NCBI GenBank assembly: GCA_938036545.1
Contig: CALHQJ010000010.1
Coordinates: 22,980-86,979, forward strand
Direction of reading: 5' to 3'
DNA: 64,000 nucleotides
From: an uncultured Clostridium sp.
Lineage (GTDB): Bacteria; Bacillota; Clostridia; Lachnospirales; Lachnospiraceae
A model generated the notes under the pieces. That model did not search any database. It was not told the DNA's origin and saw nothing but the letters and a program-made list of their open reading frames with translations. A program made the position numbers and the translations under genes. Positions 24,598 through 44,853 of this stretch are shown one piece after another. The first letter of the stretch is position 1. Each line of letters begins with the position of its first letter.

Positions 24598-24818
24598 TCA
24601 CAGAATTAAGAAGCAATGTTTATTTGGGATTATAGAATGAAAACAGTCCAAAATAAGTTGAAAAAATAAGCTATAATGAACTATAAACAAAAAAATCTGT
24701 CCAAAACTAAAACAAAAGAGTCCGAGTTTCTTCACAGTTCAGATTTTCATGGAAGGAATGGATATAATTAAAATCAGAAAGCATGGACGGAAAAGAAAAA
24801 TGGAAATGGTGAAGTTCT

Positions 24819-27859: not shown

Positions 27860-27872
27860 GGAGGTGAAAAAG

Positions 27873-28334
27873 ATGGTTAAATTAGTCAGAGTTGATCACA
27901 GGCTTCTTCATGGACAGGTTGTATTTATATGGACAGCTTCAATCGGAGTAGATTGTATTTTAATTGCTAATGATGCAGTGGCAAACGATCCAATACAAAA
28001 AGGTATTTTAAAACTCAGCCAGCCAACGGGTGTAAAGCTGATCTTTAAGTCAGTAAAAGATTCTATTGAAGCGTTAAACAGCGGCGTTACAGATAAATAC
28101 AATTTAATGATTATTACAAGCAATATAGATGATGGATATGAACTTGCAAGTAAAGCAGAGCAGATTCATTCCCTGAATCTTGGAAACGTAAAATTACGGG
28201 AAAACACACATAACTTATCAAAGTTGGTACATGTTACTGATGAAGAAGAAAGAAAATTAAAGACATTAGCGGCAGAAGGCATTGAAGTTGAAATACGTGC
28301 AGTACCAGGTGATGATAAAATCATTGTAAAATAA
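27873..28334 (+). CDS. PTS mannose/sorbose-family EIIB
   Basis: MVKLVRVDHRLLHGQVV carries the active-site His motif. Confidence 0.88.
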   Translation: MVKLVRVDHRLLHGQVVFIWTASIGVDCILIANDAVANDPIQKGILKLSQPTGVKLIFKSVKDSIEALNSGVTDKYNLMIITSNIDDGYELASKAEQIHSLNLGNVKLRENTHNLSKLVHVTDEEERKLKTLAAEGIEVEIRAVPGDDKIIVK

Positions 28335-28359
28335 GTTTCTTGCAGGATGGAGGATAATT

Positions 28360-29121
28360 ATGTTAATGCAGGCTATATTAATTGGGATTGTTACATTTGT
28401 ATGCTATGCAAATCCAATGGTCGGCAGTCTAAACTGGCTGCGTCCGATTGTGTGTGGCAGTTTAACTGGGCTGGTTCTGGGAGATCCACAGACAGGCTGC
28501 ATTGTTGGTGCAACATTGGAGCTGGCATTTTTAGGAAGTTATGCAATTGGGGGAGCGCTTCCGCCAGATTTCACGGCAGGTACGATTTTGGCAACAGCAT
28601 TTGTGATTACCTCTGGAGCCAGTACGGATATGGCTTTGGTATTGGCTTTTCCAATTTCTACGTTGGCATTACTGCTTAAAAATGCAGTATACATTGGAAT
28701 CAGAGGATATTGTTCAGAAAAGGCAACTAAGTATGCAGCACAGGCAGATGTAAAAAATGTACGGCGTATGCATTTGCTGGCGGCAGTATCATTTCCGGCA
28801 ATTATGACAGTTGTGTTAAGTATTTGTTTTTATATGGGTTCCGAGCAGGTTACTTTATTAGTCAATATGATTCCAGAATTCATTTTAAATGGATTGAAAG
28901 TTGCCAGTAAAATACTTCCGGCTTTAGGTTTTGCAATGCTGGCAAAAATGCTGATTAGCAAGAGCACAGTTCATTACTTTATCTTTGGATTTGCATTAGC
29001 AGCATATTTAGAACTTCCTATTTTGGGAATTGCGATATTTGCAGTAGTATTAGCAACTATTATCGTAAATTTAATGGAAAAAAATACAAAAACGGAGGTA
29101 GCGCTTGATGATGACTTCTAA
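28360..29121 (+). CDS. PTS mannose/sorbose-family EIIC
   Basis: This is a 253-aa polytopic protein whose LTGLVLGDPQTGCIVGATLELAFLG motif is typical of ManY/AgaC-like proteins. Confidence 0.85.
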   Translation: MLMQAILIGIVTFVCYANPMVGSLNWLRPIVCGSLTGLVLGDPQTGCIVGATLELAFLGSYAIGGALPPDFTAGTILATAFVITSGASTDMALVLAFPISTLALLLKNAVYIGIRGYCSEKATKYAAQADVKNVRRMHLLAAVSFPAIMTVVLSICFYMGSEQVTLLVNMIPEFILNGLKVASKILPALGFAMLAKMLISKSTVHYFIFGFALAAYLELPILGIAIFAVVLATIIVNLMEKNTKTEVALDDDF

Positions 29122-29926
29122 TAATAATACAGGAGAAGTAATAACAAAAAAAGACTTAAGAAGGTTGTTTTTTGATTCTTTGAGCGTCAGTGCTTCATTG
29201 AATTATGAAAAGCAAATGGATATGGGATGTGCGTTCAGCTTGGCTCCAATTTTACAGAAGCTGTATAAAAATAAAGAAGATCTGGCAGAAGCACTGAAGC
29301 GGCACACAGAGTTTTATAATGTAACACCGATGTTTAACCCAACCCTTCTGGGAGTACTGACAGCGATGGAGGAAAGAAATGCAAAAGATGAAGATTTTCC
29401 AGAAGAGTCGATCAATGCTACCAAAGCCAGTCTTATGGGACCAATGTCTGGAATTGGTGATACAATAGACAAGGGAACATTAAAAACAATCGCAACTGGT
29501 GTTGGATGTACATTCGCTTTACAGGGAAGCTTTTTAGGGCCGATTTTATTCATGCTGATATATGGCATCAGCAATTTGCTGGTTCGTTATTTTGGAGTAT
29601 TTTACGGCTATAAATTTGGAGTATCTTTATTCCAAAATACATCAGAAATAATTAAGAAGATATTCAGCGCAGTAACGATTATTGGCTTAATGGTAGTTGG
29701 CGGTATGACTGCAAGTATCGTATCTGTAAATCTGCAGCTTGCGATAGGCGTAGGAGAAGGCATCGTTAATATTATGGATGTTTTGAATACCATTATGCCG
29801 GATATTTTATCGCTGGGGATTTTTGGTTTGGTTTACTGGCTCCTAAAGAAGGAAATAAAAGCTACAACCATTCTTTTGGGAATCATAGTAGTCAGTATCG
29901 CTGGTTCTGCTGTGGGAATTTTCTAG
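29105..29926 (+). CDS. PTS mannose-family EIID
   Basis: ITKKDLRRLFFDSLSVSASLNYEKQMDMGCAF is a ManZ-type N-terminus. The gene overlaps the end of EIIC. Confidence 0.85.
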   Translation: MMMTSNNNTGEVITKKDLRRLFFDSLSVSASLNYEKQMDMGCAFSLAPILQKLYKNKEDLAEALKRHTEFYNVTPMFNPTLLGVLTAMEERNAKDEDFPEESINATKASLMGPMSGIGDTIDKGTLKTIATGVGCTFALQGSFLGPILFMLIYGISNLLVRYFGVFYGYKFGVSLFQNTSEIIKKIFSAVTIIGLMVVGGMTASIVSVNLQLAIGVGEGIVNIMDVLNTIMPDILSLGIFGLVYWLLKKEIKATTILLGIIVVSIAGSAVGIF

Positions 29927-29940
29927 GGGAGAGTTCACGT

Positions 29941-31443
29941 ATGGTAAAAAATAAGCTTCTTTTGAGAAGCACACCGATAAAAGAAAAGGTCTCTGCAAAA
30001 TCAATTTTAGAGATGCTGGAAGAAGCAGAAAAAAAGAACATTATGCTGAACAGCATTATGATAATCAGACATGGCAAAGTAATAACAGAAGGATATTATA
30101 AACCGTATTCAGAGTGTATTGAGCGCTCTATGCATTCTGCAACAAAGAGTTTTACTGCAACAGCCATTGGACTTTTGATTGATGAGGGAAGACTAAAATT
30201 AGAAGATACAGTATTGTCTTTTTTTTCAGAATATGCGCCGGAAAATCCATGTGAAAATTTAAAGAAAATGAATATATGGCATTTGCTGACGATGACATGT
30301 GGACATGATTCTGTACCAGCAAGGAAAGGGACCGATAACTATGTAAAACAGTTTTTAAATCATCCAGTACCCTATGCTCCAGGAACACATTTTCAGTATA
30401 GTTCCATGGCGAGTTATATGCTGACAGCAATTATCAGAAAAGTGTCAGGACAAAATATGACACGCTACTTGAGAACTCGTATTTTTGAACCTTTGGGAAT
30501 TTATGATGCATATTGCGATACCTGTCCTATGGGAATCGAGTATGGAGGAGGAGGATTATTCCTTCGTACAGAAGATTTAGCAAAACTGGCTGTGCTGTAT
30601 TTGAATAACGGAATATGGGATGGTAAAAGGCTTTTATCAGAGAACTGGGTAAAGGAATTTACAAAAATGCAGTTCAGGGATTCCTGGTCTCACAGCAATC
30701 CTACATTAAAGCCAGACTGGTATTGCGGATATGGTTTCCAGAACTGGAGATGCACACAAAAAAATGCGTATCGATTTGATGGGAGCTTTGGACAGTTAGC
30801 AGTAGTTTTGGAAGATTATGATGCAGTACTGGTTACTACAGCATCAGAAGCAAGACCGGAAAGGATTTTAGAACTGTTCTGGAAACATATGATTCCTGCC
30901 TTTGATAGAGAATCAACGGAAGAAGAGTGGAAAGCGTTACAGAAAAAAATAATGAATCTCGAACTGCCATGGCCAGAAGCCAGGACTGTTTCCCCGAAAG
31001 CATGGAAAATTTCTGGTAGAGATATTATAATGGACTTCAATAAGGAATCTATGGTAACAACAAAACGACAAAGTCTGGCTTTTGCAGATGCTCACATTGA
31101 ACTGAATAGAACAGGGATCGAAAAAATCAGCCTGTTTTTTGAAAATGAATTTCAATGCCGGATGCGATATACAGAAGATCATCAGGAATATGAACTTATG
31201 CTGGGTTTAAAAGATGAAATGGAACCAGGAATCTTAAGAAGTATTTGGGGTGACTATCCAGTTTTATCGACAGGCAGATGGCTGGATTCAGAACGCTTCG
31301 AGATAAGAATTTTAACAATAACTGCAGATTATTGTACAATAGTAACATTTGATTTTTCAGGTTTAGAAGTTAAAATTCAGTTTGAAGAGACGCCTTATGA
31401 CCCAGTAAAGCAGGTTCCAAAAGCCGGTTCGGAGCCCGCGTGA
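29941..31443 (+). CDS. cytoplasmic serine hydrolase of the beta-lactamase/transpeptidase-like fold with extra C-terminal domain
   Basis: It has the SxxK motif (HSATKSF), a YxS/N-type motif (FQYSSMASY), GGGGLF and DGSFGQ. No signal peptide is present, and about 170 C-terminal residues are unassigned. Confidence 0.75.
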   Translation: MVKNKLLLRSTPIKEKVSAKSILEMLEEAEKKNIMLNSIMIIRHGKVITEGYYKPYSECIERSMHSATKSFTATAIGLLIDEGRLKLEDTVLSFFSEYAPENPCENLKKMNIWHLLTMTCGHDSVPARKGTDNYVKQFLNHPVPYAPGTHFQYSSMASYMLTAIIRKVSGQNMTRYLRTRIFEPLGIYDAYCDTCPMGIEYGGGGLFLRTEDLAKLAVLYLNNGIWDGKRLLSENWVKEFTKMQFRDSWSHSNPTLKPDWYCGYGFQNWRCTQKNAYRFDGSFGQLAVVLEDYDAVLVTTASEARPERILELFWKHMIPAFDRESTEEEWKALQKKIMNLELPWPEARTVSPKAWKISGRDIIMDFNKESMVTTKRQSLAFADAHIELNRTGIEKISLFFENEFQCRMRYTEDHQEYELMLGLKDEMEPGILRSIWGDYPVLSTGRWLDSERFEIRILTITADYCTIVTFDFSGLEVKIQFEETPYDPVKQVPKAGSEPA

Positions 31444-31549
31444 AGTACGGCAACAACGACTGGCAGGTTCCAAAAGGCAGAAATTATAGTGGAAAATTTA
31501 TGATGGAAATTAATAGTTAAAAAACATCAAGCCCTTTTTGGAAAAGAAT

Positions 31550-31582
31550 CAAGGCTATTAGCTAACTAAGCTAGTAGCCTTG
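31550..31582. terminator. 14-bp stem hairpin between convergent genes (weak terminator candidate)
   Basis: caaggctattagct pairs with agctagtagccttg with one mismatch. There is no strong U-run (ggtttg). Confidence 0.35.
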
Positions 31583-31593
31583 GTTTGACAGCC

Positions 31594-31962
31594 TTATGAC
31601 TCCAGATCTTCTACGAGAATTTTGGTTACTTCTACAGTCTGGGACACTTCATCGGGATTTAGTTCTCCGGTGTAGGTAATAGAGACGGGATTGCCGATTA
31701 CAATTCCAGTAGTTCCAGTAGTGACCTCGGCCTGGCTTTTATCAAACATATAAAGGCTGCCGTCTACAGTCTTAACGGTCAGAGTGTTCATGGTTCCGTC
31801 ATCAACGACAACGGTTAGAACCTGTGTTTCAGAAACTTCGGCTGCCGTTGTCTCCTGGCTTATCGCAGAAGTCGGGGTTATCTGATTGGTCTGCTTTTGG
31901 GAACAGCCGGCCAGTCCAAGAACAGAGGCAAGCGTACAGGCAGTTATCAAGGTATATGGCAA
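31594..31962 (-). CDS. small lipoprotein-like ORF, probably 5'-truncated remnant
   Basis: A lipobox LGLAGC is present, but the n-region lacks Lys/Arg and the only start is TTG two codons after an in-frame stop, with no SD. Confidence 0.4.
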   Translation of the reverse strand: MPYTLITACTLASVLGLAGCSQKQTNQITPTSAISQETTAAEVSETQVLTVVVDDGTMNTLTVKTVDGSLYMFDKSQAEVTTGTTGIVIGNPVSITYTGELNPDEVSQTVEVTKILVEDLES

Positions 31963-32134
31963 TGGTTAGCAGACACTAACCAGAACGCAAACCAAAGTGT
32001 AAACTGAACATCTCAATGTGCAAGTCTGACACAATAGAACGATTAAAGAAGCAGAAGGAGAATAAAAAGAGGATGATTCTGGATGTAGTATTGGGGTAAG
32101 TAATATAATGGCTCAAATAGAAAAAACTCAAGAA

Positions 32135-32327: not shown

Positions 32328-33689
32328 ATGTCTGAGTTAGAAACGAAATATGCCATAGAAGTAGATAAAGTAACAAAGATTTATAAATTATATGATAAGC
32401 CCATCGACCGGCTGAAAGAGTCTTTAAACCTTTCCCACAAGGAATACCACAAAGACTTTTATGCCTTAAATGAGCTTTCTTTTCAGGTAGAAAAGGGACA
32501 GACCGTAGGAATTATCGGAACTAACGGTTCCGGAAAGTCTACCATATTAAAGATTATTACCGGAGTTTTGACCCCTACGACCGGACAGGTCAGGGTAAAC
32601 GGTAAGATTTCCGCCCTTTTGGAGCTGGGCGCCGGATTTAATATGGATTATACGGGTATTGAAAATATCTATATGAACGGCACCATGATGGGATATTCCA
32701 AAAAGGAAATGGATGACAAATTACAGGATATTCTGGATTTTGCAGAAATCGGAGATTTTGTCTATCAGCCGGTAAAGACCTACTCCAGCGGTATGTTTGT
32801 CCGTCTGGCTTTTGCCCTGGCCATTAACGTAGAGCCGGAGATCTTGATTGTAGATGAGGCTCTTTCTGTAGGAGACGTATTTTTCCAGTCTAAATGTTAC
32901 CGGAGAATGGAGGAAATCCGTCAAAGCGGAACCACAATTTTGATGGTAACTCACGACATGGGAAGCATCATTAAGTATTGCGATAAAGTGGTGCTGTTAA
33001 ATAAAGGAAACTTTGTGGCAGAGGGAAGCGCAGGCCACATGGTTGATTTATATAAGAAAATTCTGGCAGGCCAGATGGAGGCGCTGGACGAAGAACTGGC
33101 GGCGGAAAAGGACGGAACTGCTAAAAATAACGGAATTTCTGATTTGGAGATGACGGATTTTGCGGCTGGAATATCTGGGAACGAGGATAAGAAACAGCCG
33201 GAACCGGCAGGACTGATGAAAAATAAAATCACCATCAATGCCAACCGTACCGAATACGGTGACGGCAGGGCAGAAATTTACGATTTGGGACTGTTTGATG
33301 AAAGAGGAAATCTGACCAATCTGTTAATCAAGGGGGAAATGTTTACCATTCGGGAGTGCATCCGCTTCCATGCCGACATTGAAGCGCCGATTTTCACCTA
33401 TACGATTAAGGATAAAAAGGGAACAGATTTAACGGGAACCAATACCATGTTTGAAGGAACTGACATTCAACCGGTGAAAAACGGGGATGAATATCAGGTG
33501 GAATTTACCCAGAAAATGACGCTTCAGGGCGGAGAGTACCTGCTGTCTATGAGCTGCACCGGATTTGAACATGGAGAACACGTGGTATACCACCGGCTGT
33601 ATGATGTAGCCAATTTGACCGTGATTTCCAACAAAAATACAGTTGGAGTCTACGATATGGAATCTCAGGTAAAGGCAGTGAAACGATGA
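32328..33689 (+). CDS. wzt: polysaccharide/teichoic-acid ABC exporter ATP-binding protein (Wzt/TagH type) with C-terminal Wzt_C-like glycan-binding domain
   Basis: The N-terminus IEVDKVTKIYKLYDKPIDRLKESL is typical of Wzt/TagH. It has Walker A GTNGSGKST, the signature YSSGM and Walker B ILIVDEALSVGD. About 150 C-terminal residues are beta-rich (YDLGLFDERGN...EYLLSMSCTG...LYDVANLTV). Confidence 0.85.
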   Translation: MSELETKYAIEVDKVTKIYKLYDKPIDRLKESLNLSHKEYHKDFYALNELSFQVEKGQTVGIIGTNGSGKSTILKIITGVLTPTTGQVRVNGKISALLELGAGFNMDYTGIENIYMNGTMMGYSKKEMDDKLQDILDFAEIGDFVYQPVKTYSSGMFVRLAFALAINVEPEILIVDEALSVGDVFFQSKCYRRMEEIRQSGTTILMVTHDMGSIIKYCDKVVLLNKGNFVAEGSAGHMVDLYKKILAGQMEALDEELAAEKDGTAKNNGISDLEMTDFAAGISGNEDKKQPEPAGLMKNKITINANRTEYGDGRAEIYDLGLFDERGNLTNLLIKGEMFTIRECIRFHADIEAPIFTYTIKDKKGTDLTGTNTMFEGTDIQPVKNGDEYQVEFTQKMTLQGGEYLLSMSCTGFEHGEHVVYHRLYDVANLTVISNKNTVGVYDMESQVKAVKR

Positions 33690-34525
33690 AAGATATGAGT
33701 TATCAGATATTAGATCTATTAGAAAAATATGGTTCTGATCCAGAGGGCATAAAAAAGGTGCTGGAGCAGGAAGCAGATCCTGAGGTGCTGTATGCCCTTT
33801 CCCCTGTACGGGAGAATCTGTTGGAGTGGTATGACTGGAATCCAGAAGGCCGCCTGCTGCAGATTGGCGCAGATTACGGAGCGCTGACGGGTATGCTGGC
33901 AGAACGTTTGAGACAGGTAGATGTATGGGACTGCCGGGATGAGGATTTAGAAGTGGTAAAACGCCGTTTTCCTCAGACAGAAGGGATTCATCTGCTGAAA
34001 CAGATGCCTTTGGAGAAGCTGGAACAGGAATATTATGATTATATTTTTATTCCAGAGATTCGTATGGATTTGCTGGAATCAGCCGGAAAAGAACGAGAAT
34101 CCAGTAATCGGCAGAATGCGGAAGTGGGGACAGCCAGCCTGCTGACCCAGCTAAAGCCCTTGTTAAAGCCTGAAGGAAAGCTGATTCTGGCCGGATTTAA
34201 CCGGATTGGACTCAGGAGATTTGCAGGAGCAGAGGCTGATGAAGGAACTGCGGCTATTACCTGGCGGCTCATAGGCGAGATGACAGAGCGCTGTATGGAC
34301 GGACATGTTCCGGCAGTTTATTATCCAGTACCGGATCACCGCCTTCCAACAGCCGTGTATTCGGATAAACGTCTGCCGGAAAAGGGAGAGTTAAGTAACC
34401 TGTCAGTGGCATACGATAAGCCTGGATTCCGGTATTTCAGCGAAGAAGCCGGATTTGACGAACTTTTGCAGGAAGGGCAGTTTCCGCAGTTTGCAGATTC
34501 ATATCTGGTAATTTGGGAGAAATGA
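33686..34525 (+). CDS. class I methyltransferase-like protein (degenerate glycine motif)
   Basis: The Rossmann pattern is [13 protein letters not shown] ... VDVWDCRD ... YDYIFIPE ... [11 protein letters not shown]. The start overlaps the wzt stop (ATGA). Confidence 0.55.
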
Positions 34526-37500
34526 TGAAAGAGACAATTTTTGTAAAATACAACCGGACCAGAAGAGAAGAGTTTCAGATCCGGACCAGTATCATTGAAG
34601 AAGCAGGACAGAAATGGGTGGAAAAAACGGCGCTGACCAAGGCGGCAGTCAGCCATATTCAGTCCTTACAAGAGAAAAAAGAGCAGTTAAAGCGCTGCTA
34701 TCAGAATATTGAGGCAGCCGATGTAACGGTAAGCGCAGATGGCCGGACAGCCCGATTCCCGTTTATTCAGGGAGAAACCTTAGCGGAAATTCTGGGAAGG
34801 CAGATCCAAAATGGCCAGGCTCCGGTTCAGGCAGTCAAAGAGACGATGGAACGGGTATTTTCTGTGACAGATGGAACTATGATCCCATTTACCAAAACAG
34901 AAGCCTTTGAGGAAGTCTTTGGCAGTCAGCCAGAGGACTTTTCCTTTGCAGGAGATTCTTATCCAGTCACGAATTTAGACGGTATTTTTGAAAACATGAT
35001 GGAGGACAAAGACGGTAACATATGGGTCATTGACTACGAATGGGTCTTTGATTTTCCGGTTCCCGCCGAGTTTGCCCGTTACCGGAATCTGGCTTATTTC
35101 TATTATAAGTATGAAAAACTCATGGAATACGGCAATTTGACCGCTTTTCTGGCAGAGTTTGGCATTGATTCAGAAAAGGCGTCTGTGTACGGCGATATGG
35201 AAAAATCCTTCCAGGCCTATGTTCATGGAGACAGCACCCAGGGGTATTTCAAACACTTTGAACAGAGGATCGTAACTGGCGAAGAATTAAAGCGGAAGGA
35301 TGCAGATTTGCAGAAGGCCATGGAACGGATTGTGGTGCTTCAGGAGGAAGAGGAAGACCGCAATATTACCATTCGAAAAGATCAGGAGATTATGCGTCTG
35401 ACCAACAATCATGTGGCAAATCTGGAGATTATTATAAAGGATCTGCGTCATGAGATTGATGAAATGGGTAAAACCATGACCTATTTAAACAGCCATGAAG
35501 CCCTGATTTATAAGGTTTACCGAAAACTGGCCAACGCAGTGCGCCGCCGTTTCCCCAAGGGAACACGCCGTCATAAGGTATTAAAATATGCCATTGGAAC
35601 AGTCCGCCATCCTGGTTATTATGGCCGCCTGTATGTTACCAAAGAGGGACGCAACCGGATAGAGGGAGATTTTAAGATCGGAGACGGATATCGGGAAACT
35701 GGAAAACTGGTATTCCCAAAAGAGGAACATCCGGAAGTATCGGTGGTGATTCCGGTGTATAACCAGATTCACTATACCTATGCCTGCTTAAAATCGATTT
35801 TGGAACATACGCCGGATGTGACCTATGAGATTATCATTGCAGATGACGTTTCTACAGATGCAACGGCAGAGATTTCTAAATTTGCGGAAAATCTGGTTAT
35901 CAGCCGCAATCAGGAAAATCAGGGATTTTTAAGAAACTGCAATCAGGCGGCAAAAAAGGCCAGAGGCCGTTATATTATGTTTTTAAACAACGATACCCAG
36001 GTGACAGATGGCTGGCTCAGTTCCCTGGTCAATCTGATTCAGTCGGATGATTCTATCGGCATGGTTGGATCGAAACTGGTCTATCCGGACGGGCGCCTTC
36101 AGGAAGCCGGAGGAATTATCTGGAGCGACGGTTCCGGCTGGAATTATGGCCGTTTGGACAATCCGGACAAAGCGGAATACAACTATGTAAAAGATGTAGA
36201 TTATATTTCCGGCGCAGCTATTCTGCTGTCTAAGGAATTATGGAATCAGATTGGCGGTTTTGATGATCGGTTTGCTCCGGCTTACTGCGAAGATTCCGAT
36301 CTGGCCTTTGAAGTAAGAAAAGCAGGGTATCGGGTAGTATATCAGCCCCTTTCCAAAGTGATCCACTTTGAAGGAGTTTCCAATGGTACGGATGTAAATG
36401 GTACTGGTTTAAAGCGGTATCAGGTGGAAAACAGTAAAAAATTAAAAGAAAAATGGGCAGACGAGTTTAAGAAACAGTCTGTGAACGACGGGAATCCAAA
36501 TCCATTCCGAGCAAGAGAAAGAAGCCAGAAAAAGCCGGTGGTACTGATTGTGGATCACTATGTACCGACCTTTGATAAGGACGCCGGTTCCAAGACCACT
36601 TATCAGTATATTAAGATGTTTCTGAAAAAGGGATTTGCAGTGAAGTTTTTGGGAGACAATTTCCTTCACGAAGAACCGTATTCTACCACGTTACAGCAGA
36701 TGGGAGTGGAAATTCTCTATGGACCGGAATACCAGACCGGTATTTGGGACTGGCTGGAGAAAAACGGAGACCAGATTGACTTTGCTTATTTAAACCGTCC
36801 CCATATTGCAACTAAGTATGTAGATTTTATCAAGGATCATACCAATATTAAGGTGATTTATTACGGCCATGATCTTCATTTCCTGCGGTTGGGACGGGAG
36901 TATGAACTGACTGGAGATATTAAGATTAAACGGGAGGCAGATTATTGGAGAGCCATTGAGCTTTCTATGATGCAGAAAGCATCGGTGTCCTATTATCCGT
37001 CTTATATCGAAGAACAGGCCATTCATAAAATTAACCCTGAGATCCATGTAAAAGCCATTACCGCCTATGTATATGACAAGTTTTTAGAGAAACTTGAGGA
37101 AGACTTTGAGAAGCGGGAAGGACTGGTATTTGTAGGCGGCTTTGCCCATCCGCCCAATGCCGATGCGGTGCTCTGGTTTGCCAGGGAGATTTTCCCGCTG
37201 ATTCGGGCGCAGATTCCGGACATGAAGTTTTATGTAGTGGGTTCTAAAGTAACAGACGAGATTAAGGCCTTAGAGCAGCCGGGAAACGGCATTATTATCA
37301 AGGGCTTTGTCAGTGATGAAGAACTGGAAGCCATTTACCAGAAGTGCCGGATTGTAGTCGTTCCGCTGCGTTATGGAGCAGGCGTAAAAGGAAAGGTCGT
37401 AGAGGCTATTTATAACGGCGCTCCCATTGTCACCACATCCATTGGTGCAGAAGGGATTCCGGACGTAGAAAAAACCCTGGAAATCGCAGACGGAGCGGAA

Positions 37501-37641
37501 GAGTTTGCAGAAAAAACCGTAAAATTATATGGGGATACGGCGCGTCTGAAAGAATTGTCAGACCGCACACAAGAATATATTAAGGCACATTTCAGCGTAG
37601 ATGGAGCCTGGAGCGTAATAGAGGAGGATTTTACCAGATGA
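34522..37641 (+). CDS. multidomain glycan assembly protein: kinase-like N-domain / coiled-coil / GT2 / GT4(GT-B)
   Basis: The N-terminal part of about 230 aa has APH/protein-kinase-like catalytic segments ([19 protein letters not shown]). About 85 residues at nt 35278-35540 have heptad-like charged sequence without Pro/Gly. The GT2 domain has [10 protein letters not shown]...IIADDVSTD...FLNNDT. The GT-B C-domain has [18 protein letters not shown] ... [15 protein letters not shown] ... [17 protein letters not shown]. Confidence 0.75.
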
Positions 37642-38693
37642 GTAAACAGGTTTTAACGCCAGAAACAGAATATATGGTAAAAATTTTAGAAAAGCTGGTT
37701 AACATTCCCAGCCCAAGCGGCTATGCGGCAGAGGTAATGGAAGTAATTAAAAAAGAAGCAGAAGGCTTTGGATTTGATTCTTATTTCAGCAGAAAAGGCA
37801 GTCTGGTTATCCAGATTCCGGCAGCAGATGGAACGACAGAAAAAGATACCTTAGGCATTACGGCTCATGGAGATACTCTGGGCGCAATGGTTCGTTCTAT
37901 TACCCCTTACGGAACTCTTCACTTTGCCTGCGTAGGCGGCTATATGATGGAATCCATTGAAGGAACCTACTGCAAGATCCATACCCGCACCGGAAAGGTT
38001 TATACCGGAACTATTCTTACAACAGAGCCGTCGGTTCATACCTATGACGACGCCAGAACCCAGGAACGAAAAGTAAAAAATATGGAAGTCCGTATTGACG
38101 AGATTGTTAAAAATGAAGAAGATGTAAAGGCGCTGGAAATTTTCCCAGGGGATTACATCAGCTTTGATCCGATGTTCCGTTACAGCGAAAGCGGATTTAT
38201 CAATTCCCGCCATTTAGACGATAAAGCATCCGTTGCAATTTTGCTCACTTTATTAAAATACCTGTCTGAAACTGGTAAGAGACCGGCTCGTCCGGCTAAG
38301 ATTGTTTTGAGCAATTTTGAAGAGGTAGGCCATGGCGGTTCCTGGATTCCAGAGGACATTACCGAGTTTATGGCAGTCGATATGGCGGCAATCGGGGATG
38401 ATTTAAGCGGAGACGAGTATACGGTTACCATTTGCGCTATGGATTCTTCCGGCCCGTACCATTACGAACTGACCAACCGTTTGATTGAGATTGCAAAGGA
38501 AAAAGGCCTGAATTATACGGTAGATATTTTCCCGCACTATGGTTCTGATATTACGGCTGCATTAAGAGCCGGACACGATATTAAGGGCGCTTTAATTGGA
38601 CATGGCGTTCACGCTTCTCATGGTACCGAGAGAACCCATATTAAAGGCTTAGAGCAGACCTATGAGCTGGTAAAAGGGTATTTGGGCGTATAA
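37638..38693 (+). CDS. M42 family metallopeptidase (FrvX/CelM-type aminopeptidase)
   Basis: It has [31 protein letters not shown] and FEEVGHGGS motifs. The start overlaps the previous stop (ATGA). Confidence 0.85.
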
Positions 38694-38707: not shown

Positions 38708-39415
38708 ATGCAGGCAATCTTACTGGCAGGCGGCTTGGGAACTAGACTTCGCAGCGTCGTAAGCGACAGGCCAAAACCAATGGCTCTTATTGAAGGACGT
38801 CCCTTTATGGAGTATGTAGTTCACGAGTTGTCCCGCCATGGAATTACCCATATTATTTTTGCAGTGGGCTACAAAGGCTCCATGGTAGAGGAATACTTTG
38901 GAGATGGAAGCAGCTTTGGAGTAACGGTTTCCTATGCGTATGAGGAGACGCTGCTGGGAACTGCAGGCGCAATCAAAAATGCAGGAAAATTCATAACCGA
39001 AGATACGTTTTACGTGTTAAATGCAGACACCTTTTACCAGATTGACTACGGCCGTCTTACCAGTCTGCAGCAGGAAAAAAATCTGGATATGGCTCTGGTG
39101 CTTCGGGAAGTTCCAGACGTGTCCCGATACGGGGAAGCAGTTCTTCAGGATGGAATCCTTACGGGATTTAACGAAAAATCAGAAGAAAGCCGTCAGGGAA
39201 CCATTAACGGCGGAATTTACCTGATGAAAAAGGAGCTTCTGGCGGAAATTCCAGAGGGAAAGGTTTCCCTGGAAAATGAAATGATACCCAAATGGATGCA
39301 GGAGGGAAAGCGTCTGGGCGGCTTTGTCAATGACGGATATTTTATTGATATTGGAATACCGGAGGCATACTTCCAGTTTCAGGAAGATGTGAGAAAAGGA
39401 GTGGTAGTATGGTAA
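38708..39415 (+). CDS. hddC: D-glycero-alpha-D-manno-heptose 1-phosphate guanylyltransferase
   Basis: ILLAGGLGTRLRSVVSDRPKPMA is a sugar-1-P nucleotidylyltransferase N-terminus. The gene is clustered with hddA, gmhB and gmhA. Confidence 0.8.
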   Translation: MQAILLAGGLGTRLRSVVSDRPKPMALIEGRPFMEYVVHELSRHGITHIIFAVGYKGSMVEEYFGDGSSFGVTVSYAYEETLLGTAGAIKNAGKFITEDTFYVLNADTFYQIDYGRLTSLQQEKNLDMALVLREVPDVSRYGEAVLQDGILTGFNEKSEESRQGTINGGIYLMKKELLAEIPEGKVSLENEMIPKWMQEGKRLGGFVNDGYFIDIGIPEAYFQFQEDVRKGVVVW

Positions 39416-40479
39416 TTCGAGGACGGGCGCCCCTGAGAGTCAGCTTTGGCGGAGGCGGCACAGACGTAGCCCCATTCTGCGAAGAGCAGGGCGGAGCCAT
39501 TATTGGAAGCACCATCAATAAATATGCATATTGTTCCATTGTACCAAGACAGGATGACCAGATTATCGCTCACTCTCTGGATTTTGATACAACGGTAAAA
39601 TACAATACAAAAGAAAACTACGTCTATGACGGCAAGCTGGATTTGGTAACAGCAGCGTTAAAGGCCATGGACATCCGTCAGGGCTGCGAGGTGTATTTAC
39701 AGTGCGATGCACCTCCAGGTTCCGGTCTTGGAACATCTTCCACGGTTATGGTAGCTCTTTTGACTGCTATGGCCCGCTGGAAAGGCGTGGAGTTAGACAA
39801 TTATGCACTGGCAGATTTGGCTTACCAGGTAGAACGTCTGGATTTGAAGATTGACGGCGGCTACCAGGATCAGTATGCAGCAGCATTCGGAGGCTTTAAT
39901 TTTATTGAGTTTCACGGCCGCAACAATGTGGTAGTCAATCCTTTGAGAATCAAAAAAGACATTATCCATGAACTCCAGTACAATTTGCTTTTGTGCTATA
40001 CCGGAAACATCCATGTTTCTGCAAATATCATCAAAGATCAGGTGAAAAATTACGAGAAAAAAGACGCCTTTGATGCAATGTGCGAGGTAAAGGCCCTGGC
40101 CTATGCCATGAAGGACGAACTGTTAAAGGGGAACCTGTACAGCTTTGGCAAGCTGTTAGATTATGGCTGGGAAAGCAAAAAGAGGATGAGCAGCAAGATT
40201 ACCAATCCCCAGATTGACGAGCTGTATAATGAGGCGAAGAAAGCAGGGGCTTTGGGCGGAAAACTCCTGGGAGCAGGCGGCGGCGGTTTCCTGCTGATGT
40301 TCTGCCCGTATAATATCCGCCATGTAGTAGCAGCCCGTATGGAAGCAGTGGGCGGTCAGGTAACAGACTGGAATTTTGAATTGAGAGGGGCGCAGAGTTG
40401 GATTACCAACGAGGACAGATGGCAGTATGATGCAGTCAAAGTCCATATGCCAAACGGAAATTATGAATTTCAATTATAA
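39409..40479 (+). CDS. hddA: D-glycero-alpha-D-manno-heptose 7-phosphate kinase (GHMP kinase)
   Basis: It has RAPLRVSFGGGGTDVAPF, the GHMP motif PPGSGLGTSSTV and GAGGGGFLLMF. Confidence 0.82.
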   Translation: MVIRGRAPLRVSFGGGGTDVAPFCEEQGGAIIGSTINKYAYCSIVPRQDDQIIAHSLDFDTTVKYNTKENYVYDGKLDLVTAALKAMDIRQGCEVYLQCDAPPGSGLGTSSTVMVALLTAMARWKGVELDNYALADLAYQVERLDLKIDGGYQDQYAAAFGGFNFIEFHGRNNVVVNPLRIKKDIIHELQYNLLLCYTGNIHVSANIIKDQVKNYEKKDAFDAMCEVKALAYAMKDELLKGNLYSFGKLLDYGWESKKRMSSKITNPQIDELYNEAKKAGALGGKLLGAGGGGFLLMFCPYNIRHVVAARMEAVGGQVTDWNFELRGAQSWITNEDRWQYDAVKVHMPNGNYEFQL

Positions 40480-41086
40480 AACGGAAAAACGGCCGGTTAT
40501 TTTTTTAGACAGAGACGGTACGATTAATGAGGAAGTCAACTATCTGCACCGGCCGGAGGATTTAAAGATTCTTCCTGGGGCCGCAGAAGCCATCAGCCGG
40601 TTTAATCAGGCCGGTTTCCTGGTGATAGTCATTACCAATCAGGCCGGAATCGGAAGGGGATATTACACCCAGCAGGATATGGAAAAGCTGAATGAGTATA
40701 TGAATCAGGTTTTGGCAGAACAGGACGCCCACATTGATGGATTTTACTTCTGCCCCCATCATCCGGAGCATGGAATCGGGGAGTATAAGAAAGATTGTGA
40801 CTGCCGAAAGCCTGGGATTGGAATGTTTCGCCAGGCAGAACAGGATTTTTCCATAGAAAAAGCCCATTCCTATATGATAGGAGACAAGCTGATCGATACC
40901 CAGGCCGGACACAACTATGGTGTTTCCTCCATTCTGGTAGGAACTGGATATGGAAAGGAACTATTTGAGACTCAGTGCCAGGGCAGACGAAGAACAACGG
41001 ATTATGAGTATTATGCAGAAAACCTGATGGAAGCAGCAGACTGGATTTTTAAGGAGGAAGGCCAATGGAATCAAGAGAATACGTAA
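40463..41086 (+). CDS. gmhB: D,D-heptose 1,7-bisphosphate phosphatase (HAD)
   Basis: It has FLDRDGTIN, ITNQAGIGRGYY, CPHHPE, CDCRKPGIGM and IGDKLID. The ORF is open from 40427. Confidence 0.85.
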   Translation: MNFNYKTEKRPVIFLDRDGTINEEVNYLHRPEDLKILPGAAEAISRFNQAGFLVIVITNQAGIGRGYYTQQDMEKLNEYMNQVLAEQDAHIDGFYFCPHHPEHGIGEYKKDCDCRKPGIGMFRQAEQDFSIEKAHSYMIGDKLIDTQAGHNYGVSSILVGTGYGKELFETQCQGRRRTTDYEYYAENLMEAADWIFKEEGQWNQENT

Positions 41087-41736
41087 CCTTACTGACAGAA
41101 CGGTATCCAAAATTAAAGGCAATAGAGGGTCAGATTGAGGACGCTTATCAGGTGTTGGAAACCTGCTATGAAAACGGAGGCAAGCTGCTGATTGCAGGAA
41201 ATGGAGGAAGCTGTGCAGACGCAGAGCATATCGTAGGAGAATTGATGAAAGGCTTTGTAAAGCGCCGTAAAGTAAACGAAGAAGAGCAGGCTTTGCTGGA
41301 GCAGGCAGGAAGACAGATCTGCGAGGATAGCAGACTGGAAGAAAACCTGGGAAAAGAACTGGCAGAGTGTCTTCAGGGCGGCCTTCCGGCCATTGCACTG
41401 ACAGGACATAACGGCCTTTCTACAGCATTTTTAAATGATGTAAATGGAGAAATGATTTATGCCCAGCAGCTTTGGGGATATGGCAAGCCAGGAGACGTAT
41501 TTTTGGGGATTTCCACTTCTGGAAACTCGAAAAATATCCTGTATGCCCTGGCAGCAGCAAAGGCAAAAGGCTTAAAGACCGTGGTATTAACAGGGCGGGA
41601 CGGAGGAAAACTGGCAAAATCAGCAGATGCAGCCATTATCGTACCAGAACAGGAAACTTACCAGATTCAGGAGCTGCATCTGCCTGTTTACCATACTCTG
41701 TGCCTGATGTTAGAAGAACACTTTTTTCGTTCGTAG
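41065..41736 (+). CDS. gmhA: phosphoheptose (sedoheptulose-7-P) isomerase, SIS domain
   Basis: It has LIAGNGGSCADAEHIVGEL, LGISTSGNSKNI and IVPEQETYQIQELH. Confidence 0.85.
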   Translation: MESREYVTLLTERYPKLKAIEGQIEDAYQVLETCYENGGKLLIAGNGGSCADAEHIVGELMKGFVKRRKVNEEEQALLEQAGRQICEDSRLEENLGKELAECLQGGLPAIALTGHNGLSTAFLNDVNGEMIYAQQLWGYGKPGDVFLGISTSGNSKNILYALAAAKAKGLKTVVLTGRDGGKLAKSADAAIIVPEQETYQIQELHLPVYHTLCLMLEEHFFRS

Positions 41737-41754: not shown

Positions 41755-42540
41755 ATGAAAGAACACGTATTTGCGATTTGTGCTTATGGGGATTCTCCAT
41801 ATCTGGAGGCCTGCATCCGATCATTAAAGATGCAGACAATTCCGGCAGATATCATCCTCTGTACGTCCACGCCCAGCAGCTACATAGATGGACTGGCAGA
41901 AAGCTATGGGATTCCTGTCTTTGTACGGGAGGGAGAGAGCAATATTCGGGACGACTGGGAGTTTGCCTGCCGCATGGCAGACGCCAAACTGGTAACCGTT
42001 GCCCATCAGGACGATATGTATCATAAGCAATATAAGGAAACTTTGCTTTCCTACGCCAGAAAGTATCCAGATATGACCTTGTTTACAACGGATTACGTCC
42101 TGGTAAAGGGAACAACATTGGAGACCGGAGATAAGGTGCGCCTGGTTAAGAAAATACTGCGTCTTCCCCTCCGGATTCCGGCGCTGAACCACTTGACAGC
42201 AGTAAAGAAGGCAGCGCTTATATTTGGAAATCCTATTTGCTGTCCGTCCTGTACCTACAACAAAGAACTGATTGGAAATCCCATATTTGACTCCAAATTT
42301 CAGTATGCGCTGGACTGGGATACCTTTGCCCGTCTGGCTGAGTGGGGAGGCCGGTTCATCTGCGTGGAGCGGCCGCTTTTGTATTACCGGATACATGAGG
42401 CCAATGCAACCAAGGCCTGTATGAAGGGAGATCGGAGAACCAGAGAAGAGACCGAGATGTTTTCCCGCTTCTGGCCGGATTCTGTAGTAAGGGGTATTAT
42501 GCATTTTTATAAAAAGGCATATAAAGAATATGAAGGGTAA
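41755..42540 (+). CDS. glycosyltransferase family 2 (GT-A)
   Basis: It has FAICAYGDSPYLEACIRSL and the acidic motif VAHQDDMY. The size of 261 aa is typical of single-domain GT-A enzymes. Confidence 0.75.
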   Translation: MKEHVFAICAYGDSPYLEACIRSLKMQTIPADIILCTSTPSSYIDGLAESYGIPVFVREGESNIRDDWEFACRMADAKLVTVAHQDDMYHKQYKETLLSYARKYPDMTLFTTDYVLVKGTTLETGDKVRLVKKILRLPLRIPALNHLTAVKKAALIFGNPICCPSCTYNKELIGNPIFDSKFQYALDWDTFARLAEWGGRFICVERPLLYYRIHEANATKACMKGDRRTREETEMFSRFWPDSVVRGIMHFYKKAYKEYEG

Positions 42541-44812: not shown

Positions 44813-44853
44813 CTGTTTCGGGCGGTGGGAATATCTCAGGAAGGAAATACACA

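What the first reader, a model, noticed from the sequence alone, without database searches (positions are those of the whole stretch)
33686..37641. WbdD/WbbB-like chain-terminator and molecular-ruler logic in a Firmicute glycan locus
A methyltransferase-like gene is translationally coupled to wzt. It is followed by a 1040-aa protein that combines a kinase-like N-domain ([11 protein letters not shown] / IWVIDYEW resemble the catalytic and metal-binding loops of APH/protein-kinase-like folds) with a Pro/Gly-free charged heptad region of about 85 residues (nt 35278-35540), a GT2 domain and a GT4-type GT-B domain. In Gram-negative ABC-dependent O-antigen systems, WbdD is a methyltransferase-kinase with a coiled coil. 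WbbB is a terminator domain, coiled coil and polymerising GTs. Both cap the glycan and set its length, and the cap is read by the Wzt C-domain. Here all of these pieces (methyltransferase, kinase-like, coiled coil, two polymerase-type GTs, Wzt_C) are adjacent but distributed differently. That suggests a phospho-methyl-type capping and ruler mechanism for a cell-wall or S-layer glycan in a Gram-positive organism.
Basis: inference. Interest (0 to 1): 0.75.

Follow-up and report, generated by a model that had tools for sequence, protein, structure and literature searches.

The report
Glycan chain-capping kinase with ruler
This gut Firmicute locus encodes a sugar-chain builder joined by a rigid 13-nm coil to a capping kinase, with a partner methyltransferase and a cap-reading exporter; it is a Gram-positive relative of a Klebsiella system proven in 2024, so it is real but not a new principle.

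Summary

- **279-aa protein:** a class I SAM-methyltransferase fold.
- **aa 1-245 of the large protein:** an APH/choline-kinase-like fold with invariant K35, D153, N158 and D171.
- **aa 253-343:** one 91-residue helix with very strong heptad periodicity.
- **C-terminal part:** GT2 and GT4 modules.

I recovered Klebsiella pneumoniae O7 ORF6 from primer sequences in Kelly et al. 2024. ORF6 has the order methyltransferase, kinase, coiled coil, two GTs, and it adds a methyl-phosphate cap. Its methyltransferase, kinase and GT2 modules are homologous to the window's proteins. Its essential D441 aligns with the window's D153.

In 80 Lachnospiraceae genomes the same cassette recurs, always followed by GDP-heptose genes. 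The modules are split as here, fused into one ~1300-aa protein, or arranged as in WbdD.

Caveats:
- No wzm lies in the 64-kb window.
- The SAM loop reads QIGADYG, not E/DxGxGxG.
- No glycan chemistry is known.

Verdict: a new Firmicute member of a known kind, of moderate interest.

The parts
32328..33689 (+). wzt: ABC-transporter ATPase (NBD about nt 32466-32864) with a C-terminal Wzt_C carbohydrate-binding domain (aa 307-444, nt 33246-33659)
   Evidence: Pfam ABC_tran 7.6e-24 and Wzt_C 6.4e-43. PDB 8dku/7k2t full-length Wzt at about 1e-83. 39% identical to K. pneumoniae O7 Wzt: NBD 50%, C-domain 28% with E 6e-15. GGAGG lies 6 nt before the ATG at 32328.
33686..34525 (+). 279-aa class I SAM-methyltransferase-fold protein, the partner of the kinase. 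It has a family-specific C-terminal extension ([10 protein letters not shown]...YSD..LP..G). Motif I is Q59-I-G-A-D63-Y-G65 (nt 33860-33880).
   Evidence: AF2 pLDDT 86, pTM 0.88. Foldseek finds SAM-MTs at E 1e-9. Profile against PDB MTs gives 1e-9. BLASTP to the ORF6(O7) MT domain aa 57-315 gives E 1e-15. Fused to the kinase domain in relatives. ATGA overlaps at both ends.
34522..35256 (+). Kinase-like domain (aa 1-245) of the 1039-aa protein. K35 is at nt 34624-34626. The catalytic loop T150[10 protein letters not shown]160 is at nt 34969-35001. The metal-binding strand I167-WVIDYEW-174 is at nt 35020-35043.
   Evidence: AF2 pLDDT about 90. Foldseek hits LicA, Mph(2') and APH(3'), probability 1.0. 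Invariant K35, H45, D153, N158, D171, Y172, E173, W174. hhalign to the ORF6(O7) kinase gives 94% probability, E 1.1e-7. ORF6 D441 aligns with D153.
35278..35550 (+). Coiled-coil segment: a single 91-residue helix (aa 253-343), about 13.5 nm if straight. Proposed spacer or ruler between the kinase and the GT modules.
   Evidence: AF2 gives one continuous helix. Periodicity at 3.5 residues has power 76. One register with a/d 69% hydrophobic. 1 of 2000 shuffles reaches this. The kinase-to-GT2 spacing is 146-147 aa in 61 of 80 related loci.
35551..35730 (+). Short helical linker (aa 344-403) between the coil and GT2
   Evidence: AF2 helices at 349-362, 364-372 and 374-385, with lower pLDDT.
35731..36459 (+). 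GT2 (GT-A) glycosyltransferase module, aa 404-646
   Evidence: Pfam Glycos_transf_2 9e-28 and Glyco_tranf_2_3. 32% identical (E 3e-24) to the second GT2 module of ORF6(O7).
36514..37641 (+). GT4-type (GT-B) glycosyltransferase module, about aa 665-1039. Pfam supports aa 867-1012.
   Evidence: Pfam Glyco_trans_1_4 6e-24 and Glycos_transf_1 6e-11. NCBIfam TIGR03087 covers aa 803-1031.
38708..41736 (+). [quoted passage not shown] They probably supply the donor sugar.
   Evidence: Best NCBIfam matches are HddC 3.6e-55, HddA 2.2e-86, GmhB 1.6e-54 (above cut-off) and GmhA 8e-43. The set follows the terminator-polymerase gene in nearly all 80 related loci whose flank reaches that far.

Best explanation
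This is the core of an ABC-transporter-dependent pathway for a capped cell-surface glycan in a Lachnospiraceae bacterium.

**Proposed mechanism.**
1. The GT2 and GT4 modules at the C-terminus of the 1039-aa protein polymerise the chain on a lipid carrier at the cytoplasmic face of the membrane. The donor probably includes GDP-heptose made by the four genes downstream.
2. The N-terminal APH-like kinase is held about 13 nm away by a 91-residue coiled coil. It phosphorylates the non-reducing terminal sugar once the chain is long enough to reach it.
3. The separately encoded, translationally coupled methyltransferase-fold protein docks on the kinase and most likely methylates that phosphate.
4. 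The cap stops elongation and is recognised by the C-terminal carbohydrate-binding domain of Wzt, which licenses export.

**Shown here:** the folds, the catalytic-residue conservation, the coil, the homology to K. pneumoniae O7 ORF6, and the conserved gene cassette.

**Inferred:** the cap chemistry, the ruler function, the donor sugars, the MT-kinase complex, and the acceptor of the exported glycan.
For: **Folds and the coil.**
- Kinase fold and invariant K35/D153/N158/D171.
- Coiled coil, with tightly conserved spacing.
- MT fold.
- Wzt_C.

**Homology to K. pneumoniae O7 ORF6.** I recovered ORF6 as L084 nt 5755-9999. It is 1414 aa, all four mutagenesis primer sequences I checked match, and the mutated residues sit at the published positions.
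- MT: E 1e-15.
- Kinase: hhalign probability 94%, E 1.1e-7. hmmsearch aligns ORF6 D441/N446/D459 with the window's D153/N158/D171.
- GT2: 32% identity, E 3e-24.
- Wzt: 39% identity.

ORF6 adds methyl-phosphate in vitro, and D441A abolishes phosphorylation and export (PMC11231755).

**Natural fusions.** MT-KIN-CC and MT-KIN-CC-GT2-GT4 occur in relatives.

**Spread of the kinase module.** It sits N-terminal to varied polymerase modules (GT4-GT2-GT4, WsaF-like, RgpF) in other proteins.

**Selection.** All genes are under purifying selection against relative L005: omega is 0.04-0.05 for wzt and the large ORF, and 0.19 for the MT.

**wzm in relatives.** wzm is directly upstream of wzt in about 45 of the related loci.
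Against: - **No wzm.** There is none in the 64-kb window, nor within about 7.7 kb upstream in the closest relatives. The permease partner is unidentified.
- **MT motif I.** It reads QIGADYG. The second Gly is Asp, at the position corresponding to ORF6 G93, one of two glycines that Kelly et al. changed to alanine in a mutant construct listed in their supplement. The leading acidic residue is Gln. The MT is also the least conserved gene: 74% aa identity against 92-93% for its neighbours.
- **No CBM.** The Ig-like CBM that follows the ORF6 kinase is absent.
- **No membrane anchor.** No C-terminal membrane-anchoring helix was identified.
- **No chemistry.** No glycan structure is known for any organism that carries the cassette (searches found none).
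- **Modest kinase match.** The kinase homology to ORF6 is 24 bits. It is significant only as a targeted one-to-one test.
Confidence: 0.7

Rival explanations
1. The system caps with phosphate alone, or with a phosphate derivative other than methyl-phosphate. The 279-aa protein is then a catalytically altered or inactive methyltransferase fold. It would serve as a structural partner of the kinase, or it would methylate a sugar hydroxyl instead of the phosphate.
For: - Motif I is QIGADYG instead of E/DxGxGxG, in 55 of about 80 related loci.
- The changed Gly corresponds to ORF6 G93, one of two glycines that Kelly et al. changed to alanine in a mutant construct listed in their supplement.
- The MT gene evolves about four times faster than its neighbours: omega 0.19 against 0.04-0.05.
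- A Firmicute S-layer glycan capped by a cyclic phosphate, not methyl-phosphate, is known in C. difficile SLCT-11 (PMC6254364).
- E. coli O8 WbdD caps with methyl only (own knowledge).
Against: - The Q...D variant is itself strongly conserved, and E/G co-varies with Q/D, which suggests a compensated and still functional pocket.
- omega of 0.19 is still purifying selection.
- The fold is confidently predicted around the loop, with pLDDT 93-98.
- Active class I MTs with a non-glycine at this position exist, for example catechol O-MT with GAYCG (own knowledge, not tested here).
Confidence: 0.2
2. The coil is only an oligomerisation or scaffold element that assembles the kinase, MT and GT modules. 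It is not a ruler. Chain length is set by the ratio of polymerase to terminator, or by the transporter.
For: - The spacer length hardly varies (146-147 aa in 61 of 80 loci). There is therefore no natural length series to correlate with glycan size.
- Part of the coil carries a conserved sequence motif (RLTxNHVxNLE). That suggests a specific interaction rather than a pure spacer.
Against: In every characterised system of this kind the coil has been shown or argued to act as the ruler: WbdD, WbbB, and ORF6/ORF7 of K. pneumoniae O7 and O4 (PMC11231755). [quoted passage not shown]
Confidence: 0.15
3. The N-domain is a small-molecule kinase, like choline kinase or an aminoglycoside kinase. It makes a precursor for decorating the glycan, for example for the LicD-family transferase at 51441-52295. 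It is not a glycan-terminating kinase.
For: The top Foldseek hit is the choline kinase LicA. A LicD-family gene lies 14 kb downstream in the same gene array.
Against: - The domain is always fused to a coiled coil and polymerising GTs, and in about 25 of 80 loci also to the MT.
- It is homologous over its whole length to the ORF6(O7) kinase, which phosphorylates the glycan terminus.
- A soluble precursor kinase has no need to be tethered 13 nm from GT modules next to a Wzt_C transporter.
Confidence: 0.05
4. In this particular genome the pathway is crippled or rewired, because the wzm permease gene is not linked. The wzt-MT-kinase/GT genes would then be relics, or would work with a foreign permease.
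For: - No ABC2_membrane gene is found in 64 kb.
- The region just upstream (24.6-32.1 kb) is a low-GC insertion relative to relative L005.
Against: - The closest relatives and Enterocloster species also lack an adjacent wzm yet keep all genes intact.
- omega is 0.04-0.19.
- All ORFs are full length and keep their coupled starts.
Confidence: 0.1

Closest known systems
Klebsiella pneumoniae O7 ORF6 (Kelly et al. 2024, J Biol Chem, PMC11231755): a methyltransferase-kinase terminator fused through a coiled coil to two GT2 polymerase modules
   Same: - Same module order: MT, an otherwise unannotated APH-like kinase, a coiled coil, two GTs, next to a Wzt with Wzt_C.
- Homology was measured for the MT (E 1e-15), the kinase (hhalign 94%, with D441 aligned to D153), GT2 (32% identity) and Wzt (39% identity).
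- Relatives of the window protein have the identical single-polypeptide layout.
   Different: - The MT is a separate, translationally coupled gene here.
- There is no Ig-like CBM between the kinase and the coil.
- The second GT is GT4, not GT2.
- The coil appears longer here: 91 aa, against a heptad-like stretch of roughly 60-70 aa read by eye in ORF6, not measured.
- MT motif I is QIGADYG, against EIGAGCG in ORF6.
- The host is a Firmicute with no LPS.
- The linked sugar pathway is GDP-heptose rather than rhamnose and ribofuranose.
- wzm is not linked.
WbdD of E. coli O9a / K. pneumoniae O3 (with the WbdA polymerase)
   Same: - N-to-C order MT, kinase, extended coiled coil. The cap is methyl-phosphate and is read by the Wzt C-domain.
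- One relative (L001) has exactly [MT-kinase-coil] followed by a separate [GT-GT] gene.
   Different: - No sequence or top-ranked fold match to WbdD was found.
- The kinase here is APH/choline-kinase-like.
- The polymerase is fused to the coil. There is no C-terminal amphipathic membrane helix or recruitment site.
WbbB of K. pneumoniae O12 / Raoultella terrigena
   Same: A single polypeptide with the terminator at the N-terminus, a coiled-coil ruler, and two polymerising GT modules at the C-terminus.
   Different: The WbbB terminator is a beta-Kdo glycosyltransferase (GT99), not a kinase. No methyltransferase is involved.
WsaE of Geobacillus stearothermophilus NRS 2004/3a (S-layer glycan; PMC2943079)
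   Same: A Gram-positive, Wzm/Wzt-dependent glycan. An N-terminal methyltransferase plus two GT domains in one protein. Overlapping wzt and terminator genes. The cap is proposed to be read by Wzt.
   Different: WsaE has no kinase domain and caps with a 2-O-methyl group. In vitro its methylation was independent of chain length, and no ruler has been described.
APH / choline-kinase branch of the protein-kinase-like superfamily (LicA 4r7b, Mph(2') 5igz, APH(3')-Ia 4feu)
   Same: Same fold, with the same catalytic constellation: a beta3 Lys, the D-x4-N catalytic loop, and a metal-binding Asp on the following strand.
   Different: - No sequence-level match to any PDB kinase or to Pfam.
- The His of the HxDxxxxN motif is Asn.
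- The [11 protein letters not shown] signature is family-specific.
- The substrate is presumed to be a polymer terminus.

Membership tests
ORF6(O7)-type methyltransferase-kinase glycan terminators | Class I SAM-methyltransferase domain homologous to the ORF6 N-terminus, including its C-terminal extension | tested here: met
   BLASTP of the window's 279-aa protein against ORF6 aa 57-315 gives 25% identity, E 1e-15. The fold is confirmed. It is encoded as a separate gene here and fused in about 25 of 80 relatives.
ORF6(O7)-type methyltransferase-kinase glycan terminators | Unannotated APH/AmiN-like kinase domain with the catalytic Asp (ORF6 D441) | tested here: met
   hhalign gives probability 94%, E 1.1e-7, over 204 columns. 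hmmsearch aligns D441/N446/D459 with D153/N158/D171. These residues are invariant or nearly so. Foldseek hits are APH-family kinases.
ORF6(O7)-type methyltransferase-kinase glycan terminators | Canonical E/DxGxGxG SAM loop (ORF6 G91, G93) | tested here: not met
   The window has Q59-I-G61-A-D63-Y-G65. The G93 equivalent is Asp and the acidic residue is Gln. Canonical EIGSGYG occurs in a minority of relatives.
ORF6(O7)-type methyltransferase-kinase glycan terminators | Ig-like CBM between the kinase and the coiled coil | tested here: not met
   The AF2 model goes from the kinase domain (ending about aa 245) straight into the helix at aa 253. There is no beta-sandwich. In ORF6 the stretch between the kinase and the heptad-like region (about aa 560-690) has no counterpart in the window protein; the paper places the Ig-like CBM after the kinase domain.
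ORF6(O7)-type methyltransferase-kinase glycan terminators | Extended coiled coil separating the terminator from C-terminal polymerising GT modules | tested here: met
   A 91-residue helix with one heptad register. GT2 and GT4 lie downstream. GT2 is 32% identical to an ORF6 GT2 module.
ORF6(O7)-type methyltransferase-kinase glycan terminators | [quoted passage not shown] | not testable with these tools
   This needs enzyme assays and glycan NMR or MS.
WbdD (E. coli O9a) family | Detectable sequence or closest-fold relationship to the WbdD MT and kinase domains | tested here: not met
   No WbdD chain appears among the PDB profile hits for the MT (59 hits at E up to 0.01) or the kinase. None is in the top 50 Foldseek hits. 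That WbdD structures are in the PDB is my own knowledge.
WbdD (E. coli O9a) family | C-terminal membrane-binding amphipathic helix and a polymerase recruitment site after the coil | tested here: not met
   The coil is followed by covalently attached GT2 and GT4 modules. No hydrophobic segment is predicted in the protein.
Wzt with a cap-binding carbohydrate-binding module (ABC-dependent capped-glycan export) | NBD plus a C-terminal Wzt_C domain | tested here: met
   Pfam Wzt_C 6.4e-43. Two matched stretches on full-length Wzt 7k2t/8dku.
Wzt with a cap-binding carbohydrate-binding module (ABC-dependent capped-glycan export) | Cognate Wzm permease encoded with wzt | tested here: not met
   There is no ABC2_membrane protein or tblastn match to relatives' Wzm in the 64-kb window. 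wzm is present directly upstream of wzt in about 45 related loci.
Protein-kinase-like (APH/ChoK) phosphotransferases | Bilobal fold with a beta3 Lys, a D-x4-N catalytic loop and a downstream metal-binding Asp | tested here: met
   Foldseek probability 1.0, TM about 0.5 to APH(3')-Ia. K35 lies on strand 30-37. D153/N158 and D171 flank strands 159-161 and 167-169.

The most novel reading that the evidence does not exclude
Common gut Lachnospiraceae (Enterocloster, Hungatella, Lacrimispora and relatives, with relatives of the kinase domain in 425 species genomes) make a heptose-containing wall or surface glycan. Its length is set by a 13-nm coiled-coil ruler, and it is capped by a phosphate-based group installed by a previously unannotated kinase family of more than 3000 sequence clusters. 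In most members the partner 'methyltransferase' has an Asp in place of a Gly in the SAM loop. The cap chemistry may therefore differ from the Klebsiella methyl-phosphate: phosphate only, or a different transfer.
Probability: 0.35. Interest if true: 0.55.

Novelty: new member of a known kind. Interest (0 to 1): 0.4.

Why it matters
- **Reach of the strategy.** It extends an experimentally proven capping-and-ruler strategy from Gram-negative O antigens to abundant Gram-positive gut commensals and opportunists such as Enterocloster bolteae, E. clostridioformis and Hungatella hathewayi. Their surface glycans are almost unstudied.
- **An unannotated domain family.** The kinase domain has no Pfam or NCBIfam model. 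It is labelled 'hypothetical' or 'glycosyl transferase' in public records, yet it forms a family of about 3100 clusters at 50% identity. The homology to ORF6 D441 shown here gives a basis for annotating it.
- **A natural experiment.** The three module arrangements within one family (split, WbdD-like, fully fused) show how terminator, ruler and polymerase can be partitioned.
- **An accessible next experiment.** The constant linkage to GDP-heptose genes predicts a heptose-containing polymer in cultivable strains. That makes the glycan chemistry a straightforward next experiment.

Tried and rejected
- **Single-sequence PDB searches.** phmmer of the N-domain and of the 279-aa protein against PDB gave nothing useful.
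- **Family libraries.** Pfam has no model for either. NCBIfam gave only a 22-bit CpaM hit.
- **Kinase profile against PDB.** The profile of the kinase domain alone found no kinase. Only structure prediction plus Foldseek revealed the fold.
- **Exact-protein look-up.** No record exists for the 1039-aa protein.
- **WbdD as closest relative: rejected.** It appears in no sequence or fold list.
- **A 269-aa six-TM ORF upstream of wzt in relative L005.** I first suspected Wzm. It is a ZIP transporter.
- **ORF6 peptides among the representatives.** The 150 best representative proteins held no ORF6(O7) peptides.
- **Primer search in E. coli genomes.** A megablast of an ORF6 primer against E. coli genomes found nothing. 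The metagenome scan then succeeded.
- **Mann, Kimber & Whitfield 2019.** This Glycobiology census of terminators is not in the held library. Whether it already lists these Firmicute loci could not be checked.
- **Promoter, terminator and Rfam scans.** The promoter/terminator scan of the locus did not exceed shuffles. Rfam found nothing in the locus.
- **Literature on the glycan.** Searches for a heptose- or methyl-phosphate-containing glycan in these genera found none.
- **Third homology search.** The search with the kinase profile added only 'hypothetical protein' names.

Full report
**1. What is in the sequence.**

On the + strand the finding covers three genes joined by 4-base ATGA overlaps:
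- wzt, 32328-33689;
- a 279-aa gene, 33686-34525;
- a 1039-aa gene, 34522-37641.

A fourth gene, an M42-family peptidase at 37638-38693, is coupled to the large ORF in the same way.

Wzt has an ABC ATPase domain and a Wzt_C domain (Pfam 6.4e-43). It matches the full-length Aquifex WzmWzt structures over both parts (E about 1e-83).

In the large protein, Pfam sees only GT2 (aa 404-646) and a GT4-type module (aa 867-1012). Nothing matches aa 1-400. Nothing in Pfam matches the 279-aa protein.

**2. The 279-aa protein.**

Its homologues include members with Pfam Methyltransf_25/11 hits. A profile of the family hits PDB class I SAM methyltransferases at 1e-9. The AlphaFold2 model is confident (pLDDT 86, pTM 0.88). 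It matches SAM-dependent methyltransferases with Foldseek E about 1e-9. So the fold is right.

The glycine-rich SAM loop is unusual. It reads Q-I-G-A-D-Y-G where the consensus is E/D-x-G-x-G-x-G. This is not decay in one genome:
- 55 of about 80 related loci have the Q...(S/A)-D-Y-G form, and about 15 have canonical E-x-G-x-G-x-G.
- The gene is under purifying selection, although it is the fastest-evolving gene of the operon. Against relative L005 its omega is 0.19 with 74% aa identity. wzt and the large ORF have omega 0.04-0.05 with 92-93% identity.

**3. The N-domain of the large protein.**

With an alignment of 36 homologues, AlphaFold2 gives a compact alpha/beta domain at aa 1-245 with pLDDT about 90. 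Foldseek against the PDB returns only protein-kinase-like phosphotransferases of the APH/choline-kinase branch:
- LicA, E 4e-6;
- macrolide 2'-phosphotransferases;
- APH(3')-Ia, with TM about 0.5 on the target.

All have probability 1.0.

The family's invariant or nearly invariant residues are K35 (on strand 30-37), H45, D153, N158, and D171-Y-E-W-V-F. That is a beta3 lysine, a D-x4-N catalytic loop and a metal-binding Asp.

A weak hhalign to NPTII aligns D153/N158/D171 with D190/N195/D208.

**4. The heptad region.**

AlphaFold2 predicts aa 253-343 (nt 35278-35550) as one uninterrupted helix. Hydrophobicity has Fourier power 76 at period 3.5, against 17 or less at other periods. One heptad register holds over the whole length, with 69% hydrophobic a/d positions against 18% elsewhere. 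Only 1 of 2000 shuffles does as well.

It has no Pro and two Gly. A straight helix of 91 residues would be about 13.5 nm long.

The distance from the end of the kinase domain to the start of GT2 is 146-147 residues in 61 of 80 related loci, and 146-173 overall.

**5. Relatives show that these pieces belong together.**

Homologues of the N-domain include natural fusions in which the 279-aa protein's homologue is joined to the kinase-like domain and the coil. The linker is about 8 residues.

A scan of 185,579 species genomes for the DYEWVFxF signature found 425 loci that encode a relative. The best 80 are almost all Lachnospiraceae: Enterocloster bolteae, clostridioformis, citroniae, lavalensis and aldenensis, [C.] asparagiforme, Lacrimispora and Hungatella.

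In them the order wzt, MT, KIN-CC-GT2-GT4, HddC, HddA, GmhB, GmhA is conserved. Three partitions of the same modules occur:
- [MT][KIN-CC-GT2-GT4], as in the window;
- one polypeptide of about 1300 aa, MT-KIN-CC-GT2-GT4, in about 25 loci;
- [MT-KIN-CC][GT2-GT4], in L001.

In about 45 of the related loci a Wzm permease gene (Pfam ABC2_membrane) lies directly upstream of wzt.

A search of 1.84 billion representative proteins with the kinase-domain profile found 3128 clusters at E up to 1e-3. In long members the domain is N-terminal to other polymerase modules: GT4-GT2-GT4, GT2 plus a WsaF-like rhamnosyltransferase, and RgpF. This is the behaviour of a portable terminator module.

**6. The link to an experimentally characterised enzyme.**

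Kelly et al. 2024 (PMC11231755) showed the following for K. pneumoniae O7 ORF6:
- It adds methyl-phosphate to the terminal rhamnose in vitro.
- D441A abolishes phosphorylation in vitro. In vivo it leaves only high-molecular-weight polymer, which the authors interpret as non-terminated, non-exported OPS.
- Orthologues were reported from proteobacteria and cyanobacteria.

The ORF6 sequence was not at hand, so I rebuilt a 44-mer from the D441A mutagenesis primers in the supplement. It was found once in the metagenome collection (L084).

The ORF there is 1414 aa. It has G91/G93, D441, D975/D977/D978 and N1230/D1232 at the published positions, and the other primers also match. wzm and a Wzt_C-bearing wzt lie just upstream.

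Comparisons with the window:
- **279-aa protein against ORF6 aa 57-315:** 25% identity, E 1e-15, including the family-specific extension after the Rossmann core.
- **Kinase profile against ORF6 aa ~329-546:** hhalign probability 94%, E 1.1e-7, 204 columns. hmmsearch pairs ORF6 D441, N446 and D459-C-E-W with the window's D153, N158 and D171-Y-E-W.
- **GT2:** 32% identical (E 3e-24) to the second GT2 module of ORF6.
- **Wzt:** 39% identical overall. The NBD is 50% identical and the C-domain 28%.

The window therefore encodes a homologue of the ORF6(O7)-type methyltransferase-kinase terminator, not merely a look-alike.

**7. How it most likely works.**

Shown here: the folds, the conserved catalytic residues, the coil, the module homology and the conserved gene neighbourhood.

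Inferred:
- The GT2 and GT4 modules polymerise a lipid-linked glycan in the cytoplasm. [quoted passage not shown] Their best NCBIfam matches are HddC, HddA, GmhB and GmhA.
- The kinase, about 13 nm away at the far end of the coil, phosphorylates the non-reducing end when the chain is long enough.
- The separately made MT-fold protein docks on the kinase, as in the fused relatives, and methylates the phosphate.
- The Wzt C-domain recognises the cap and export follows.

**8. What argues for caution.**

- There is no wzm in the 64-kb window. The same is true of the nearest relatives and of Enterocloster, so the permease must be encoded elsewhere.
- The stretch just upstream of wzt (about 24.6-32.1 kb, GC 36-40% against about 45%) is an insertion relative to relative L005. 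In L005 a ZIP transporter gene sits in that place.
- The SAM loop deviates from the consensus at the position equivalent to ORF6 G93.
- The window protein has no Ig-like CBM.
- No membrane-anchoring element was found.
- No glycan structure is known for any carrier.
- The kinase match to ORF6 is only 24 bits. It is convincing as a targeted test with concordant catalytic residues, but it would not be found in a database search.

**9. Comparison with what is known, and novelty.**

The principle is established: a coiled-coil terminator plus a Wzt carbohydrate-binding module. It has been shown for WbdD, WbbB, and ORF7(O4) and ORF6(O7). It is described as widespread (PMC11231755, citing Mann et al. 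2019, which I could not read).

Gram-positive precedents exist:
- WsaE of G. stearothermophilus has a methyltransferase plus two GTs and caps with a methyl group (PMC2943079).
- The C. difficile SLCT-11 S-layer glycan has a 2,3-cyclophosphoryl-rhamnose cap (PMC6254364).

What is new here:
- the Firmicute branch of the ORF6-type kinase family and its size;
- the split-MT arrangement;
- the GT2 plus GT4 polymerase;
- the variant SAM loop;
- the constant linkage to GDP-heptose genes.

I rate it a new member of a known kind, of moderate interest.

Noticed in passing
window 24555-32115: A low-GC block (36-40% against about 45%) sits between metK and wzt. It carries a LevR-like regulator (PRD/EIIA), mannose-family PTS EIIA/B/C/D genes and a beta-lactamase-fold protein. 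In the close relative L005 a ZIP zinc-transporter gene occupies this place. A short piece matching its 3' end (45 nt at 89% identity; the last 8 codons are identical) remains at window 32069-32113.
   Followed up: partly
whole window; wzt at 32328: There is no wzm (ABC-2 permease) gene anywhere in the 64 kb, although wzt is intact and under purifying selection. In Hungatella and Lacrimispora relatives wzm abuts wzt. In Enterocloster and the window's clade it does not.
   Followed up: partly
window 37638-38693: An M42-family peptidase gene is translationally coupled (ATGA) to the end of the terminator-polymerase gene, inside a glycan operon. Its best NCBIfam match is the NAGGN-system M42 peptidase, below cut-off. 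It is present in the window's clade and the E. bolteae clade (L004-L013) and absent from the other loci. Its role is unexplained.
   Followed up: partly
window 42530-48201: Four membrane proteins have no Pfam match: 760 aa with about 13 TM, 124 aa with 2 TM, 494 aa, and 480 aa with about 9 TM. They follow a small GT2 at 41755-42540. A GT2 followed by a membrane protein of about 750-820 aa and 9-13 TM recurs in the relatives I inspected. They are candidates for extracytoplasmic glycosyltransferases or a ligase for the exported glycan.
   Followed up: no
window 48204-53310: A second sugar set: RfbF, RfbG and RfbH (CDP-glucose to CDP-3,6-dideoxyhexose steps, all above NCBIfam cut-offs), a LicD-family gene, and a PgfS/ArnC-like polyprenyl-phosphate GT2. 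This suggests side-chain decoration outside the cytoplasm.
   Followed up: partly
window 23128-23269: A SAM riboswitch (Rfam RF00162, 57 bits) lies upstream of the S-adenosylmethionine synthetase gene at 23364-24551.
   Followed up: no
window 33686-34525 against L005 9180-10004: The methyltransferase-fold gene diverges much faster than its neighbours: 74% aa identity against 92-93% for wzt and the large ORF. It also carries a clade-specific charged insert, aa about 128-147.
   Followed up: partly
window 34522-35256 and proteins P0067-P0212: The kinase-like domain has no Pfam or NCBIfam model, and public records call it 'hypothetical' or 'glycosyl transferase'. It nevertheless defines about 3100 clusters at 50% identity, with a near-universal D-x4-N...DYEW signature (139 of 146 representatives).
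   Followed up: yes
window 35350-35430 (aa ~277-303 of the large protein): Inside the coiled coil, the stretch RLTxNHVxNLE is conserved across distant homologues. This is unusual for a pure spacer and may mark a binding site or a register-setting polar layer.
   Followed up: no
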